DNA from: Microcystaceae cyanobacterium
Lineage (GTDB): Bacteria; Cyanobacteriota; Cyanobacteriia; Cyanobacteriales; Microcystaceae
Direction of reading: 5' to 3'
Length of the DNA stretch: 64,000 nt
Assembly: GCA_041746575.1 (NCBI GenBank)
Contig: JBGTGT010000115.1
Coordinates: 1 to 64,000 of the forward strand
Made by a program: the position numbers. Below, one piece after another: positions 3,001 to 9,000 of the stretch. Every line of letters starts with the position of its first letter. Positions within the stretch are counted from its first letter, which is position 1.

Positions 3001-6000
3001 TTAATTGATTTAACCCTTGTGCTTTCCACATTTCTAAGGGTAATGCTTGTTGAAAAATGGGGTCAAAAACTGTTGTGCCTTGACTGGCAATAACATCATC
3101 TACCCCCTTCCCCCATTCGGGTGGCCAAGTTATGATATAAATCTGACAACCTGCTTGGGTGAATAAATAACCTAGTTTGCGAATGGCAGTGTTAACCGCC
3201 TTAATGGTATGAGGGCAACTATCTTGATCGAAAATAATGTAGATTTTACGTTGTTTTGTCGCAAATTTTGCCAATTGAGGAATTAAATGAGATTTGCCGG
3301 TACGATTTCCCCACTCATCTTTGGGGGTACGATAACCATTATTGATTCCCGGTAATGCGATCGCTGCATAACCCATCGTCAACAGCGATCCTGCTTTTTT
3401 AGCTCCTTCGGTGATACAGATGGGAATATCGGGATTATTCAGTACCCACTGCCAAAAATCTCCCGATTCTGTATTTGTATTGAGGACGGCATTGGCTTTA
3501 TCATGATTGTGTCGTTGAGCGATTTTTTGCCAAAGTGCCGCAGGGACTTGTAACGCAAAGATACCCGTTGCGGTTTTGGGCGGATGCTCATATTTAATTA
3601 ATTTTTGGCGATCAAAACTTAAACGAGGTTGATTCGGCTTAAAACAGCCCCAGAGATCCTTCTCTCCCGTCATGACGTCAATTCCGGAACACCACCATCC
3701 CCCTGCTTCGGTATGTTCGTAACGCTTTAAAATGTCGTCTCTCACGCGGCCATCATTGCGTCGAGGCAGATGATCAGAATAAAATAGATATTCTGAGGGG
3801 GCAACCCCCTCTAAAGCAGTCACGTTGAGTTCAATCAGTTGTTGATCGACACAACTCTGTTGCCATTCCTGTAAGTAGTTCATCTATCTTTTCCTTGATC
3901 ACACTATATGTAGTGTATTGCTATTTAAGTTTAGGTTAAAAACGCCAAATATAGCAATATTTTCAAGGGCAGGGAGCAGACGATTATGATAGATGAGTCC
4001 ATTATTTCACCCGAGAAAGACCGATTACTGCTAATTGCCAGTCATGGCAGGACAAAAAACAGATGCAAACAGGTGTGTACGTGACTTTTCCTTGATCAAG
4101 AATATATGAGCTAAAAATATTTGCAAAACCCAAAGGACAAAAAGAAGATTACCATCGTGTTATAAGCTATCGTTTAATTGCGAGTCAAAAAGGTCAACCT
4201 TTGCCAGTAACCTGCAAATAAATGAAATTAAAGAAAGGCTACTATAATAGTAACCTTTTAACGATAGCCATGTTGTCAACTTTGTCAACGAGAGGTCGAC
4301 CCAATTATTACGCAAAGGTCGCAACCAATTGAGCAAAATAACCGTTTAATTCATCCTTCATTTCTTCGGGAACTTCTCCTGATGCTAGTAATAAATCCCT
4401 TGCTTGCGTTACCCCTTCAATACAAGAAGAAAGCGGAACATTAAGTGCTCGGAAAAACTCACCGACACTGCGGCCATTCCAGCGATAAATGGGGTCAGGA
4501 CTTCGGACAATTATACAATAAGAAATAATGCGCAAATAATCCCCAATATCTTGATACCAATGCTGAACTTTTTTGGGGGTATCTCCACAATAGCCAGGTT
4601 GTTTAAATTCGGGATGTCTTTTAACAAGCATATCTCCGGATTGTTGTACGAGAGAATCAATCATCTCCCCTAATTTTGCCACAAATTCAAGACGTTTTGC
4701 TTCTTGAGCAAGGCGTTCACCGATTTCTTGGCAATCGTAGTCGTTTAAAAAACGACCGGTTGTATCCGCATTCATCAACACACTGGTAATGATAGATTTC
4801 ATAGCACTCAACTCGTTTAATAATGAACAACAAAAAGGTTAGATTTAATGGATAGAAGCTACCACAAAATCAAAAGCATCCGAGACTTCTTTAATTAAAT
4901 CAACGTCGTCGGTTATCGCTTCTGTGCGGAGTAATTCTACTGTTTTTCCTTTAACAATAGCTAAAGCAGATAGGGTTGAATCGAGAGAAACACCTAATAC
5001 TTGAAAGGTGTCTTTTAAGCCGAAACATTTATCTTCTAAGATGGAAATATCCCCTGCCGCAATAGCATAGGTGACATAGCGAAGCAAAATTTCCACATCA
5101 CTTGTAGCGTTTCCCATGCGACGATTAGGATAACAATTACCGCCGGGTTCAACTAAACTGGGATATTGGTTAATCATCCCTGAAATGGCTTCGGAGACAA
5201 TACTATTTTTATGGTCGTTGATTAATTTGACCGCATTCAGACGTTTGTGACTTTGATCGATGAATTTTTGCAGATTCGCCATGTCCTGTTTGGTTAAACA
5301 AGCCATACTTTGATTAGCTGTGGCGATCGCTCTTGAAAAAATATCTTCCATAGGACTGATCTCTTACCGTTTATTTTCCTACGATAAAAGATTCCTAAGA
5401 CTTTGAGCGCAAATATTGGCATTAATTAACGAAACAACGATCTATTGCCATAAATTCTAAAAAATCATCCGTAAGGCTACTGAAATTTCGGCTAATCTTA
5501 ATCTGAAATTATCCCTGATTTTGCGGAATACCCTTAGTATTTTTGCTTAAATTAGAACCATTGCAACATTTGATGTTTTTTTCTTGATATTACTGCCGTA
5601 AGCACATTTGGAGGAATTAGCCATTCTGTTTCTGTTCCTAATTCCCCTCTCTACTTTTGTTAATACACCGTTACTTAACGCTATTTTTCCTTTATTCTCT
5701 CAATTTTTTTACAATAAGCCTTCGAGGACAGCTCCTACAACTCGATGATCTTGATCTTGTTTTAACTGATTCAAGGCCGTTTGAGCAAGGGGATGTTTAA
5801 AGTAGTGTAAGCTGTAGGCAACTTGTACGCGAATTCGATGTGATTCCACAGTAATAAGAGAGAGTAATTGATTTAACGCTTTTTCCTCAGTATTTGTTCC
5901 TATTAACAATACAAGGCTTTCAATAGATACCTCTTGCACACTGGGATCTGGATCATTAATTCCCCATTGACACAATTGCCATAGTTCTAAGGGACAATTT

Positions 6001-9000
6001 AACGTTCCCATCGCCGCAAGTATGCTCTGACGAACTAACCAGTGATCATCCCGTTGAAACATTTCCATCAACTGTGGAACAGACGCTTTTCCGTAAGAAG
6101 CAAGAGAATTTGCCGCTTCTGCTCGCACGTTTGCATCCGGATCTTTTAATAATTGTAACAATCCTTCATAGGATTCTGGCGATCGCTTATAGCCTAGTCC
6201 CATAGCGACGAAGGAACGGATAATAAATTCTTGGTCGTTTAAGCAGTTTAGTAGCAAAGGAACAGCATTTTCAGGGGGATATTCCCGCAAAGAGGCGATT
6301 GCTTTTAATCTTTCTTGGGATTGAGGGCTTTGTAAAGCAGTCTTAATTTGTTGAAGTTCCATTTTTTGAGCAAAGAATATGACTTATTATTCATTTTAGT
6401 TTACATAAATTTACAAAAAAAGGAATCCATCTTAATGCTTGTGTTTGGCTTAAAAAGACGTTGTATCTTAATCTATAAGAGAACTGCTTGCTAGATCGAT
6501 TACAGATTACTGGTGGTCATATACTGCGTAAAGCGACGATGGGATCAAGTTGAGCAGCACGTTTGGCCGGAAACACACCAAAAAATAAGCCGATTCCTCC
6601 AGAAACGGCTAAAGCTGAACTAATAGCGAGGAGCGAAATACTCGGATTGAGGGGTGAAATCCATCCGACTAAGAGAATACTACCGACGCCGATAATAATT
6701 CCTAAAATCCCCCCTGTAGCGGAAACCATAATCGCTTCAATGAGAAATTGAGTCAGAATATCCCCTTCTTTTGCGCCGACGGCTTTACGCAGTCCGATTT
6801 CTTGCGTTCTCTCCGTCACAGAAACCAGCATAATATTCATCACCCCAATTCCGCCAACAAAGAGAGAAATTCCGGCAGTGGCCGCTAAAAGAACGGTTAA
6901 TCCTTGACTGACAGTGCCAATAATATCTAGCATTTGCTTAGCAGATTCTACGCCAAAATCATCCTCATCGTTGGTAATATTGTGTCTTAATCGCATAATA
7001 TTTTCAATTTGAAAGATAGCCGCCCTGATATTCTCTCTATTGTCAACTTCCACATTAATCCAGCTTAATTCCAGTCCATAGGGGGAGGTTCTGCCGACCA
7101 ATTGATTGGCCATGGTGGTTAAGGGGATAAAAACAAATTCGTCTTGATTTGTGCCTAAAAATGAGCCTTTTCGCTCCATAACTCCAATAATTTCAAAATT
7201 TGCCCCTTTAATGCGGAGAGATTGACCAATAGGGGATTGATTGGGGAACAAACGATCTACAATTTCTTGACCCACGACTGCGACTCGTTTATTGCGTTGT
7301 TGGTCAACTTCATTCAAAAAGCGGCCAGTTTCGGCATAAAAGCTTCTGACGAATTGATAATTGGCACTGGTTCCTACAACCATCCCCATCGTATTCTGAT
7401 TGCGGTAGGACAGAAGCAGGCGACGATTAATTTCAGGGGCAACTGCCTTTACCGTGGGAACTTGGGAAGCGATCGCCTTGGCATCTGCCAGAACAAGCGT
7501 TCTAGGAAGATCAAAGGTGGCATTACGCGCCTTACGTGAACCCGGCACCACGAAGAGTACATTTGGTCCAAGGGATTGAAATTGTTCTTCGGCCATCTTT
7601 TGTGCGCCTTGGCCGAGTCCAATAAGAGTAATCACGGAGGCATTACCGATAATAATTCCTAGCATCGTCAAGGTACTGCGCAGTTTATTAGCTGCCAGCA
7701 TAGAATAAGACATTTTTAGGGTTTCTAAGAAGTTCATCGTTCAAGAGTAAGCAGTAATCAGCAAGCAGTGACCCATCGTTAGTCATTTATTCATACCTAT
7801 CTTTTAGTCTAATCGTTATTTCCTCGGCCATGTAGCGAATCTGTGAAAATCGCCTAAATCTCTAAGACTTTATGCTGAATTTTTCTTTTGTAACCCTTGC
7901 TCAATCCCGTTTTAGTAAAACAATTGTTGATGGATAATAATGTTGGTAAATTTTAAGCCCTAGAAACCTTATTCCGTCCTTAAAGAAAACGACAAAATTA
8001 AAATGGGAAAGTTTGAAACGTCTCTAAAGAGCGATCGTAAAAAAGTTGGAAAGTTGTTCCCTCTATTTGACAAGCTACTAATCGTCACCGAAAATTAGGG
8101 CTTCGCTTTCATCTTATTGCTGGTTTTCATAATTATGAATTAACGCTCTCCGAATTTAAGTCCAACTGATTTAGGGAAGAGGTCTAATGATCGTCAGTCA
8201 TTACAACGGTTTGATAGACAAGGAGACTCTATCTTAAAACAGGGCAACTTTGTCAGGAATTTCCCTTTTTCTCAAGATGATTTAGCACAAATTTAACCCA
8301 AAAATTCCGACAGTTAAGGTGTGATTTTGGTCAATTAATAGGTTGTGTTAGAATTAGTCAATCTCTGTAAAAATGAAATGAAAAGAAACGTGAAAAAAAT
8401 TAGATTGAGAATTAGAAATTAGTATTATTGCTTCTTTGAATATTAGTGAAAGAGGAGGTTTTCAATGCTCATTTTTGCCGAGGGTATTTTTGTAGTTTCA
8501 GAAGTGTAATGCAAACGATTAACCACAAAAAACCAATGCTATATCCAGCGATAATATCCGTAGGCCAATGCACTCCTAAATAGAGACGACTTAAACCAAT
8601 TAAGGCAATAATTATGACGGTAAAACAATAAATTAATTGAGAAAATTTAGGATAACGATGGCTTAACAAATAGGCAATAAAACCATACAAAACGGCTGAT
8701 CCTAGAGCATGACCACTAGGAAAACTGAAAGAGCTTTCGGAAATACGTTGAGTCCAAAACTGGGGACGGGATTTAGCAAAAAATAACTTCATTCCAGTTG
8801 TTAGGCTTAAAGTCCCTAAACAAGCTAAAAGAAAAATATTTGCTTCTTGACGATGGTGCTTCCATAACAGTACGCTGAGAGTTATAGTAGCCACAATAAT
8901 TATAATGCTAGGATTACCCAATTGAGTTATTCTGAGCATTATTTGATCTAAAGTTGGATTGGCCCACTGATGTAACCAAAACAAAAAAGATTTATCAAAG

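What a model noticed while it worked through the whole genome (the two positions that open the first line are those of the whole stretch)
4308..6362. A rare phycoerythrin-like alpha/beta gene pair whose two subunits both lack the canonical bilin-binding cysteine
g03101 (168 aa, beta-type) and g03100 (164 aa, alpha-type), C115:4308-5351 minus strand, 43 nt apart, are a third phycobiliprotein pair beside phycocyanin (g02187/8) and allophycocyanin (g01783/4). They are only 43% and 32% identical to their best Swiss-Prot matches (phycoerythrin beta and alpha). At the universal chromophore site (Cys82/84 in A-C-x-R-D) the beta has Thr (NATSD) and the alpha Trp (HWYQD); the neighbouring Arg is lost too, the Asp kept. 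All known relatives share this and are otherwise well conserved, so it is a maintained family: a phycobiliprotein-like heterodimer that cannot attach bilin at the usual place (non-covalent binding, attachment at another conserved Cys such as b [...]
Evidence so far: Swiss-Prot table and sequences. MAFFT alignment with the six other phycobiliproteins of this genome: all six have Cys in the ACxRD column, g03100 W, g03101 T. Word-index search of 5.8 billion clusters: 5 relatives of g03101 (65-74% identity); in 6 of 6 sequences the Cys82 column is T, M or I, Cys73 and Cys109 invariant, mean column identity 82%. HMMER against 1.84 billion 50% representatives: the family is one cluster; the next proteins reach only E 5e-30 and 40-44% identity. 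One genome per 185,579 species: 2 orthologous loci (both Microcystaceae MAGs) with beta-alpha order kept and the alpha carrying KHWYQD; the other 39 loci are ordinary phycoerythrin-type genes, mostly Prochlorococcus, at [...]
(Added by a program. Inside this text positions count along the whole contig: contig position 1 is position 1 of the stretch shown here. "Call 12" and the like, gene names such as g00115 and contig names such as C1 are that model's own, and its searches are not shown. The text may have been shortened before it was handed on; [...] marks where a part breaks off. The agent that wrote the report below was given it as the finding of a first reader that could run no searches.)

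Follow-up and report, generated by a model that had tools for sequence, protein, structure and literature searches.

The report
Cysteine-less phycoerythrin-derived alpha/beta protein pair
A hot-spring cyanobacterium that makes no phycoerythrin keeps a rare, well-conserved pair of phycoerythrin-derived antenna-type proteins that have lost every cysteine normally used to attach pigment, so they must hold pigment in an unusual way or do a new job.

Summary
Window 4845-5351(-) and 4308-4802(-) encode a beta-type (168 aa) and an alpha-type (164 aa) phycobiliprotein-fold protein, 42 nt apart. They have their own conserved upstream region and a terminator-like hairpin.

Both lie inside the phycoerythrin (PE) clades on trees but score far below the CpeB/CpeA cut-offs. 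All five PE bilin-attachment sites are gone, not only Cys82. One correction: beta Cys82 is Ala; the Thr sits one column later. Alpha Cys82 is Trp.

The beta-82 pocket keeps 4 of 6 pigment contacts. The alpha-82 pocket has 5 of 6 replaced, including two new invariant Cys.

The pair is under purifying selection (dN/dS 0.07-0.16). It is present in 3 of 3 genomes of one genus and was found nowhere else among 185,579 species. A deeper Cys-less sister pair exists in metagenomes.

The host has one bilin reductase and only CpcC-, CpcG- and ApcE-type linker matches. The contig is chromosomal, not a plasmid.

Best reading, untested: a neofunctionalised PE-derived heterodimer that holds at most one phycocyanobilin non-covalently in beta. 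It is a new variant of a known kind.

The parts
4845..5351 (-). Beta-type subunit, 168 aa. It is PE-beta-derived and lacks Cys50, Cys61 and Cys82 (Ala), and the Cys165 site together with the PE-specific insertion. It keeps Asn72, Arg77, Arg78 and Asp85.
   Evidence: contact residues from PMC5783998
4308..4802 (-). Alpha-type subunit, 164 aa. It is PE-alpha-derived, with Cys82->Trp, Arg84->Gln, Lys81->His, Ala72->Cys, Tyr127->Cys and Cys139->Leu. Asp85 is kept.
4803..4844 (-). 42-nt spacer between beta and alpha; the beta-then-alpha order is kept in both relatives
5352..5476 (-). Conserved upstream block, probably promoter and 5' leader. It is 66-69% identical between this genome and the two relatives, against 36-45% further upstream, although the neighbouring genes differ.
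   Evidence: no Rfam family; no covariation
4234..4258 (-). Terminator-like hairpin with a T-rich tail, 50 nt after the alpha stop codon
5709..6362 (-). HEAT-repeat protein of the PBS-lyase-related type (217 aa), 357 nt upstream on the same strand. It is a possible accessory; the link to the pair is unresolved.

Best explanation
The two genes form a self-contained beta-alpha operon. It encodes a phycoerythrin-derived heterodimer that diverged quickly from ordinary PE, lost all five covalent bilin sites, and was then kept under purifying selection. It is a neofunctionalised paralogue, not a decaying PE.

Shown:
- PBP fold, and placement inside the PE alpha and PE beta clades.
- Loss of every attachment Cys.
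- Conservation in one genus.
- Coexistence with a complete, normal cpeBA in one sister genome.
- A host that has only one bilin reductase and only CpcC-, CpcG- and ApcE-type linker matches.

Inferred:
- The two chains pair through the canonical N-terminal-helix interface.
- The beta-82 pocket keeps Asn72, Arg77, Arg78 and Asp85, that is 4 of the 6 contacts seen in solved C-PE. It holds one phycocyanobilin non-covalently, as the Cys-less far-red allophycocyanin paralogues ApcE2, ApcD3 and ApcF2 do. That would red-shift its absorbance.
- The alpha-82 pocket has 5 of 6 contacts replaced (A72C, K81H/Q, C82W, R84Q, Y127C). It no longer binds bilin in the canonical pose and is probably filled by Trp82.
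- The pair therefore acts as a low-pigment specialised component (red-shifted acceptor, sensor or reversible bilin holder) rather than as bulk antenna.
For: Family and fold:
- Pfam PF00502 for both.
- AF2 models have mean pLDDT 80.8 and 84.1.
- The best Foldseek matches of the alpha model are PE alpha chains, TM 0.71-0.74.

PE descent:
- The best NCBIfam models are CpeB and CpeA.
- Alpha tree: the W82 family with P0016, P0018 and P0017 forms a clade (96/92) inside the PE-alpha clade (95/93).
- Beta tree: the family with P0068 forms a clade (100/100) on a stem of 1.91 changes per site, nested in the PE-beta clade (96/94).

Loss of attachment sites: alignments. All 22 canonical PE and phycocyanin betas in the tree set carry AACLRD (20 printed it directly; for P0157 and P0007 the pattern caught an earlier RRL; P0007 is seen, P0157 was not inspected).

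Pocket contacts: taken from the 1.14 A C-PE structure paper (PMC5783998, passages read) and mapped onto my alignments.

Selection: dN/dS is 0.067-0.160 in the 4 pairwise comparisons where dS was not saturated; 2 beta comparisons were saturated.

Distribution:
- 3 of 3 genomes of genus g1 have the pair.
- 0 of 86 other genomes of the family have a match above 34% identity.
- There are 2 loci among 185,579 species.

Coexistence with true PE: sister genome G002 carries a canonical cpeBA with all Cys (L006).

Host pigment set:
- One PF05996 reductase.
- Linker-domain matches lie only in three ORFs, read by position and size as CpcC, CpcG and ApcE.

Pairing: ipSAE 0.87 against a best control of 0.00. 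The mark was reached by 116 of 157 solved complexes and 2 of 215 mismatched pairs. The three runs agree in at least 98% of contacts, and the partner pLDDT is at least 86. Solved PE heterodimers exist, so this pass shows likeness to them, not proof of binding.

Precedent for Cys-less, non-covalent, red-shifted phycocyanobilin: PMC12152189 (passages read).
Against: - No pigment, spectral or expression data exist.
- Arg84, which binds the C-ring propionate in C-PE, is lost in both subunits. I did not check whether the known Cys-less binders keep it.
- I had no access to model coordinates, so I could not examine pocket volume, the position of Trp82 or the Cys72-Cys127 distance.
- Conservation of Asn72, Arg77, Arg78 and Asp85 in beta could be structural rather than pigment-related.
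- The very long beta stem fits a complete change of function as well as it fits a change in pigment binding.
- The trees use few canonical PE alpha sequences (4) and contain long branches.
Confidence: 0.45

Rival explanations
1. Bilin-free protein. Both pockets are dead and the heterodimer works without pigment, for example as a structural or regulatory PBP mimic (rod cap, assembly or degradation decoy, or partner of the neighbouring HEAT protein).
For: - All five attachment Cys are gone, and Arg84 is gone in both chains.
- The alpha pocket has 5 of 6 contacts replaced, with a bulky aromatic at position 82. Related lineages carry Phe, Tyr or Ser there.
- The long stem of accelerated change suggests a change of function.
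Against: - Beta keeps Asn72, Arg77, Arg78 and Asp85 invariant across lineages about 50% identical. This is easiest to explain if something still sits in the pocket.
- Known Cys-less PBPs do bind bilin (PMC12152189; PMC10151467).
Confidence: 0.28
2. Relocated covalent attachment. The alpha subunit attaches a bilin through one of its new invariant cysteines (Cys72 or Cys127), which replace residues that flank ring A and Asp85 in solved C-PE.
For: - Cys24, Cys72 and Cys127 are invariant in 4 of 4 full or near-full alphas and absent from canonical PE alpha.
- In C-PE, residue 72 contacts the ring A nitrogen and Tyr127 holds Asp85 (PMC5783998).
- A relocated Cys motif with a different bilin specificity is known in BBAG-2 globins (PMC10151467).
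Against: - Both propionate-binding basic residues of the alpha pocket (Lys81, Arg84) are lost.
- The sister lineage P0016 has Ala72 and Thr127, so the new Cys are not a feature of the whole Cys-less clade.
- No dedicated lyase travels with the pair.
- The geometry could not be checked.
Confidence: 0.12
3. The remodelled alpha pocket (Cys72, His81, Asp85, Cys127) binds a different ligand or a metal, or forms a stabilising disulfide.
For: A Cys/His/Asp/Cys set has been gained around one cavity. The DNA is held by runs labelled hot springs metagenome.
Against: - His81 is Gln in P0014.
- There is no metal-site motif or family match.
- The idea rests purely on residue identity.
Confidence: 0.08
4. 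A decaying remnant of a lost phycoerythrin operon, with no function.
For: The host lacks PEB synthesis and PE linkers. All pigment sites are lost.
Against: - dN/dS is 0.07-0.16.
- The frames are intact and of equal length in 3 species and in metagenome copies.
- The upstream block is conserved.
- A normal cpeBA coexists with the pair in G002.
- A sister Cys-less pair about 45-50% identical also has intact frames.
Confidence: 0.03

Closest known systems
C-phycoerythrin CpeB/CpeA (NCBIfam NF058508 / NF058506; e.g. PDB 2vjh, 5aqd, 5fvb)
   Same: - The fold and the beta-alpha gene order are the same.
- The predicted alpha-beta interface is the canonical one.
- On trees both chains nest in the PE clades.
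- The GGNCYPNRRM and LRY.TYA motifs are kept in beta.
   Different: - 0 of 5 bilin Cys sites are present.
- Arg84 is lost in both chains.
- The PE-specific beta insertion is absent.
- The scores are about half the curated cut-offs.
- The host shows no second bilin reductase and no linker matches beyond the CpcC-, CpcG- and ApcE-type ORFs.
Cys-less far-red allophycocyanin paralogues ApcE2, ApcD3 and ApcF2 (FaRLiP)
   Same: They are PBP-fold subunits that lack the attachment Cys. In them phycocyanobilin is bound non-covalently and is red-shifted (PMC12152189 passages). This is the model for how the beta subunit here may work.
   Different: - Those are allophycocyanin-lineage core subunits encoded in the far-red photoacclimation cluster.
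- This is a PE-lineage pair in which both partners lack Cys.
- This genome holds no extra apc paralogues beyond apcA, apcB, apcE and two single apc-type genes.
- Bilin binding here is not shown.
Bilin biosynthesis-associated globins (BBAG-1/2/3; Rockwell et al. 2023, PMC10151467)
   Same: They are PBP-related globins. Some bind bilins without the CXRD motif or through a relocated Cys (passages read).
   Different: - BBAGs branch outside the light-harvesting PBPs and sit in Fe-S/V4R/bilin-reductase clusters.
- This pair nests inside PE and stands alone.
- The genome appears to have a separate cyanobacterial BBAG-like locus on contig C12.
Degenerate phycoerythrin of high-light Prochlorococcus (recalled from memory, not tested here)
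   Same: It is a PE derivative retained in an organism that no longer uses PE as its main antenna.
   Different: As I recall, only cpeB remains there and it keeps a bilin-binding Cys. Here both subunits are kept and neither has one.

Membership tests
Phycobilisome protein fold (Pfam PF00502) | Significant match over the whole domain | tested here: met
   129.5 and 93.5 bits against a cut-off of 22.2; the alpha model matches PE, APC and PC chains at TM 0.70-0.76
C-phycoerythrin beta (CpeB, NF058508) | Score above the curated equivalog cut-off | tested here: not met
   150.3 bits against 275; canonical PE betas score 317-334 bits
C-phycoerythrin beta (CpeB) | Bilin-attachment Cys at 50/61, 82 and about 165, with the PE-specific insertion | tested here: not met
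   Ser/Lys50, Asn/Lys/Ala/Glu61 (by member), Ala82, insertion deleted, no Cys in the C-terminal third
C-phycoerythrin alpha (CpeA, NF058506) | Score above the curated equivalog cut-off | tested here: not met
   90.7 bits against 225; canonical P0019 scores 295.5
C-phycoerythrin alpha (CpeA) | Bilin-attachment Cys82 (KCxRD) and Cys139 (RxC) | tested here: not met
   H-W-Y-Q-D at 81-85; Leu at 139, with Arg137 and Arg142 also lost
Phycoerythrin lineage (descent, not function) | Branches within the PE alpha and PE beta clades | tested here: met
   Alpha: PE clade 95/93. Beta: PE clade 96/94. Caveats: long branches and few canonical alphas.
Phycoerythrin system | Host encodes PEB synthesis (PebA/PebB) and PE rod linkers | tested here: not met
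   1 PF05996 match in the genome; PF00427 matches fall in only three ORFs, read as CpcC, CpcG and ApcE; the genome is 99.8% complete
FaRLiP Cys-less allophycocyanins (ApcE2/ApcD3/ApcF2) | Allophycocyanin lineage and an extra set of apc paralogues | tested here: not met
   The best models are CpeB and CpeA, not Apc; only the standard apc set is present
FaRLiP Cys-less allophycocyanins | Non-covalently bound phycocyanobilin with red-shifted absorbance | not testable with these tools
   Needs protein expression and spectroscopy
BBAG globins | Branches outside light-harvesting PBPs and sits in an Fe-S / V4R / bilin-reductase cluster | tested here: not met
   The pair nests inside PE; none of the three loci has such neighbours

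The most novel reading that the evidence does not exclude
This is a previously undescribed class of phycobiliprotein. A phycoerythrin-lineage alpha-beta pair gave up thioether linkage altogether. It now carries phycocyanobilin non-covalently in beta and/or through a relocated cysteine in alpha. That would give hot-spring cyanobacteria a red- or far-red-shifted pigment-protein by a route independent of the allophycocyanin-based far-red system.
Probability: 0.2. Interest if true: 0.85.

Novelty: new variant of a known kind. Interest (0 to 1): 0.62.

Why it matters
Covalent bilin attachment is treated as a near-universal rule for phycobiliproteins. The exceptions named in the paper I read (PMC12152189) are single allophycocyanin-type subunits of the far-red system.

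Here both partners of a PE-derived pair lack every attachment site, yet they are conserved. They are conserved even beside a normal PE in one sister species, and in hosts that cannot make the PE pigment.

If the pair binds pigment, it is a natural experiment in how the protein alone tunes a free bilin, and a possible new red-shifted or reversible fluorescent scaffold. If it binds none, it shows an antenna protein recruited to a non-pigment role.

Either outcome is directly testable by co-expression with bilin synthesis genes.

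Tried and rejected
- Plasmid location: rejected. The 83-kb contig carries fmt, tilS, ccsB, argJ, purA, pheT, ccmO, psb28, pdxA, hemF and urtDE.
- Conserved neighbourhood: none. The three loci share only the pair and its upstream 125 nt.
- HEAT gene:
  - I first read it as unrelated, because 48-57% identical orthologues occur in many genomes without the pair.
  - I then found that strong orthologues (E <= 3.1e-40) occur in 10 of 10 genomes with a CpeB above cut-off and in 6 of 21 without.
  - They often sit beside PBP genes. It is therefore a PBP-associated family whose link to this pair stays open.
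- Expression: no RNA holder was listed for the stretch.
- Laid contigs of 3 runs showed no variant letters, so there was no population-level test.
- JGI metagenome scan: only one spurious 39-residue hit.
- Genome scan with P0016: one spurious 24-residue hit.
- RNA element in the leader: no Rfam match except a chance hit at E 0.54 elsewhere in the stretch. None of 31 predicted pairs has a compensatory change.
- NtcA-type site GTA-N8-TAC (motif recalled): 5 matches in the window against 6.4 expected, none near the pair.
- ESM Atlas: returned only ordinary PBP clusters.
- Literature: searches found no description of a Cys-less PE-type pair. The library lacks most subscription journals.
- Earlier scan notes: none for this locus or sequence.
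- Pocket geometry (Trp82, Cys72-Cys127 distance): not examined, because model coordinates are not exposed.

Full report
THE OBSERVATION

Window 4845-5351(-) encodes a 168-aa protein and 4308-4802(-) a 164-aa protein, 42 nt apart on the same strand. Both match the Pfam phycobilisome-protein domain over its full length (E 1.4e-37 and 1.6e-26). Their best NCBIfam models are phycoerythrin (PE) beta (150.3 bits) and PE alpha (90.7 bits), far below the curated cut-offs of 275 and 225.

A whole-genome scan shows them as a third phycobiliprotein (PBP) pair. The others are cpcBA, apcAB, two single apc-type genes and apcE.

A terminator-like hairpin follows alpha at 4258-4234. The 125 nt before beta (5352-5476) are 66-69% identical to the same region in the two relatives, against 36-45% further upstream. 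The pair therefore behaves as a self-contained two-gene unit.

THE MISSING CYSTEINES

HMMER alignments to solved PE chains and four MAFFT alignments agree, without gaps in this region.

- Alpha reads K-V-Q-H-W-Y-Q-D where PE alpha reads K-x-x-K-C-x-R-D. So Cys82 is Trp, Arg84 is Gln and Asp85 is kept.
- Beta reads R-R-M-G-N-A-T-S-D where every canonical beta inspected reads R-R-M-A-A-C-L-R-D. So Cys82 is Ala, invariant in the family. The variable T/M/I is the Leu83 position, Arg84 is Ser and Asp85 is kept.

- Beta also lacks Cys50 and Cys61. It lacks the whole PE-specific insertion with the Cys165 site.
- Alpha lacks Cys139 and its flanking Arg137 and Arg142.
- None of the five bilin sites of C-PE remains.
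They are not among the bilin-linked residues listed for the 1.14 A C-PE structure (PMC5783998, passages read).

WHAT IS LEFT OF THE POCKETS

The same paper lists the residues that hold the central bilins.

For beta-82 they are methyl-Asn72, Arg77, Arg78, Cys82, Arg84 and Asp85 (converted to my numbering).

- The family keeps Asn72, Arg77, Arg78 and Asp85 invariant.
- That is 4 of 6 contacts, including both arginines for the B-ring propionate.

For alpha-82 they are the Ala72 carbonyl, Lys81, Cys82, Arg84, Asp85 and Tyr127.

- The family has Cys72, His/Gln81, Trp82, Gln84, Asp85 and Cys127. That is 5 of 6 changed.
- Both basic residues for the propionates are gone.
- Two new invariant cysteines sit where residues flank ring A and Asp85.

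The beta pocket looks usable and the alpha pocket looks rebuilt. I could not inspect coordinates, so the position of Trp82 and the Cys72-Cys127 distance are unknown.

FOLD AND PAIRING

- AF2 models are confident: mean pLDDT 80.8 for beta and 84.1 for alpha.
- The best structural matches of the alpha model are PE alpha chains (TM 0.71-0.74).
- The complex test gave ipSAE 0.87 against a best control of 0.00. The mark was reached by 116 of 157 solved complexes and 2 of 215 mismatched pairs. The runs agree in at least 98% of contacts, and the partner pLDDT is at least 86.
- The interface uses the N-terminal helices, as in ordinary alpha-beta units.
- Many PE heterodimers are solved, so this pass shows likeness to them. 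It does not show that these two chains bind.

DISTRIBUTION AND DESCENT

- Word-index searches of 5.8 billion clusters found 5 beta relatives (65-74% identity) and 3 alpha relatives (68-70%). All are singletons or near-singletons.
- A scan of one genome per 185,579 species found 2 loci. A scan of JGI metagenome contigs found none.
- In 89 genomes of the same GTDB family, only the 3 genomes of the window's genus have the alpha. All others are at or below 34% identity.
- A profile search of 1.84 billion representatives added three deeper alpha relatives, each without Cys82: P0016 (45% identity, Ser82), P0017 (36%, Phe82) and P0018 (34%, Tyr82).
- A profile word search added a beta, P0068 (49% identity). 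It has the same N-A-x-x-D motif (Ala82, Asn84), no Cys50, Cys61 or Cys165, and the same one-residue deletion.
- P0068 and P0016 both come from a contig of 10,339 bases. I infer they are a pair, but I could not fetch the contig.

Trees place the Cys82-less alphas as one clade (96/92) inside the PE-alpha clade (95/93). The Cys-less betas form one clade (100/100) on a very long stem (1.91 changes per site; median tip 0.10), nested in the PE-beta clade (96/94). Caveats: only four canonical or near-canonical PE alphas were included, and the tree tool flags the long branches.

The simplest reading is one ancient loss of the central Cys in both subunits, a burst of change, then stability.

IS IT MAINTAINED?

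Yes.

- Between the three orthologous loci, dN/dS is 0.067-0.160 in the 4 comparisons where dS was not saturated. In the other 2 (beta, window against each relative) pS was above 0.75 and pN was 0.23.
- The frames have identical lengths in all members.
- Sister genome G002 carries, on another contig, a complete canonical cpeBA with every Cys (331 bits for CpeB, above cut-off), flanked by a CpeS-like gene and a HEAT gene.
- The Cys-less pair is therefore a paralogue that coexists with real PE, not what is left when PE decays. G002 is a 77%-complete MAG, so binning error cannot be excluded.

THE HOST

- The genome (99.8% complete) has one ferredoxin-dependent bilin reductase.
- Its linker-domain matches fall in only three ORFs: one beside cpcBA (CpcC-type), one of 251 aa (CpcG-type) and the 902-aa apcE.
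- It also has two CpcS-type and two CpcT-type lyases and a CpcE-type HEAT gene beside cpcBA.
- Inference: if the single reductase is PcyA, phycocyanobilin is the only phycobilin it can make.
- The DNA is held by runs labelled hot springs metagenome in two studies. The first three runs may be the source of this assembly.

THE NEIGHBOURS

The CyRepA1-family gene (869-3883, 528.7 bits) is real. The contig, however, carries about 20 housekeeping genes, so the pair is chromosomal as assembled.

The HEAT gene (5709-6362) needs care.

- It is not next to the pair in the two relatives, where its orthologues lie elsewhere.
- Strong orthologues (E <= 3.1e-40) occur in 10 of 10 sampled genomes with a CpeB above cut-off. 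They occur in 6 of 21 without one; two of those six carry the Cys-less pair.
- They often lie beside PBP genes:
  - 40 nt before a PBP beta gene in G028.
  - Next to a PBP-like gene and two ORFs that look to me like PebA and PebB in G002 (not scanned against a family library).
  - Next to a 190-aa PBP-like gene and a CpeS-like lyase in G015.
  - On the same contig as cpeBA in G007 and G014.
- Sources name it only 'HEAT repeat' or 'PBS lyase HEAT-like'.

It is a PBP-associated family, so its adjacency here may be meaningful. These genomes are kin and the counts are small. I leave the link open.

HOW IT MOST LIKELY WORKS

I commit to this reading at about 0.45.

- It is a PE-derived heterodimer.
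- The beta pocket holds one phycocyanobilin non-covalently. ApcE2, ApcD3 and ApcF2 do this in far-red phycobilisomes, where loss of the thioether extends conjugation and red-shifts absorbance (PMC12152189, passages read).
- The alpha pocket no longer binds bilin canonically and is filled by Trp82.

Rivals:
- A wholly pigment-free role (0.28).
- Covalent attachment through alpha Cys72 or Cys127 (0.12). There is a precedent for a relocated Cys motif in BBAG-2 globins (PMC10151467, passages read).
- Another ligand, a metal or a disulfide in the alpha cavity (0.08).
- A dead remnant (0.03; contradicted).

The loss of Arg84 in both chains is the main point against bilin binding.

COMPARISON AND NOVELTY

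It is not a member of CpeA or CpeB as defined: the cut-offs, the Cys sites, the insertion and the host apparatus are all not met. It descends from them.

It resembles the far-red Cys-less allophycocyanins in the one feature that matters mechanistically. It belongs to a different lineage, is not in such a cluster, and has lost the Cys in both partners.

Six literature searches found no description of such a pair. The library lacks most subscription journals, so this is not proof of absence.

I rate it a new variant of a known kind, interest 0.62. It is a clear, rare and conserved exception to a rule specialists treat as near-universal, it is directly testable, and it has no functional data yet.

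Noticed in passing
window 869-3883 (-): A 1004-aa protein with DUF3854 and a full CyRepA1-family plasmid-replication domain (528.7 bits against a cut-off of 200). It sits on a contig full of chromosomal housekeeping genes, near the contig start. It may mark an integrated plasmid-derived element.
   Followed up: partly
window 16697-19113 (+): dndD (656.7 bits) and dndE (130.9 bits), genes for DNA phosphorothioate modification. I did not look for dndA, dndB or dndC or for restriction partners.
   Followed up: no
G000 contig C12, locus L007 521-2445 (-): A 157-aa weak PBP-fold ORF (35 bits to PF00502, no NCBIfam hit, no Cys in the usual motif) lies between two ferredoxin-like ORFs and before a small ORF. 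It resembles the cyanobacterial BBAG cluster (Fe-S protein, BBAG, V4R proteins) described in PMC10151467.
   Followed up: partly
L011 7178-9436 (G015) and L004 2-1520 (G002): A conserved module: a CpeS-like lyase, a 190-aa orphan PBP-like protein with an A-C-W-R-D motif, and, divergently, the orthologue of the window's HEAT protein. In G002 two ORFs that look like PebA and PebB (not scanned against a family library) follow the HEAT gene. It is an uncharacterised PBP with its own lyase-type partners.
   Followed up: partly
L006 3391-7295 (G002 contig 41): A canonical cpeBA with all bilin Cys, a CpeS-like gene, a 202-aa HEAT gene and an OmpR-type response regulator lie in a sister species of the window's genome. 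The window's own genome had no CpeB-model match above the curated cut-off.
   Followed up: yes
window 5395-5440 (-), inside the conserved upstream block: An AT-rich near-palindrome lies here: GTTAATTAAT in this genome and GTTAATTATTAAC in both relatives. It is flanked by repeated CAA-containing words and is conserved across the three loci. It may be a regulator binding site.
   Followed up: no
protein P0022: A 622-aa metagenomic protein. An N-terminal ApcA-like domain with the Cys motif intact is fused to about 460 further residues of unknown nature.
   Followed up: no
proteins P0025 and P0038: Two further rare PE-alpha-like singletons without Cys82. One has Gly at position 82, Glu for Asp85 and no Cys at all. 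The other lacks the whole KCxRD stretch. P0025 did not join the W/S/Y/F clade on the alpha tree; P0038 was not in that tree.
   Followed up: partly
G000 contig C115 72955-73509 (-), outside the window: A second, divergent CpcT/CpeT-type lyase gene (159.8 bits, against 232.1 for the other copy) lies on the same contig as the pair, about 68 kb away.
   Followed up: no
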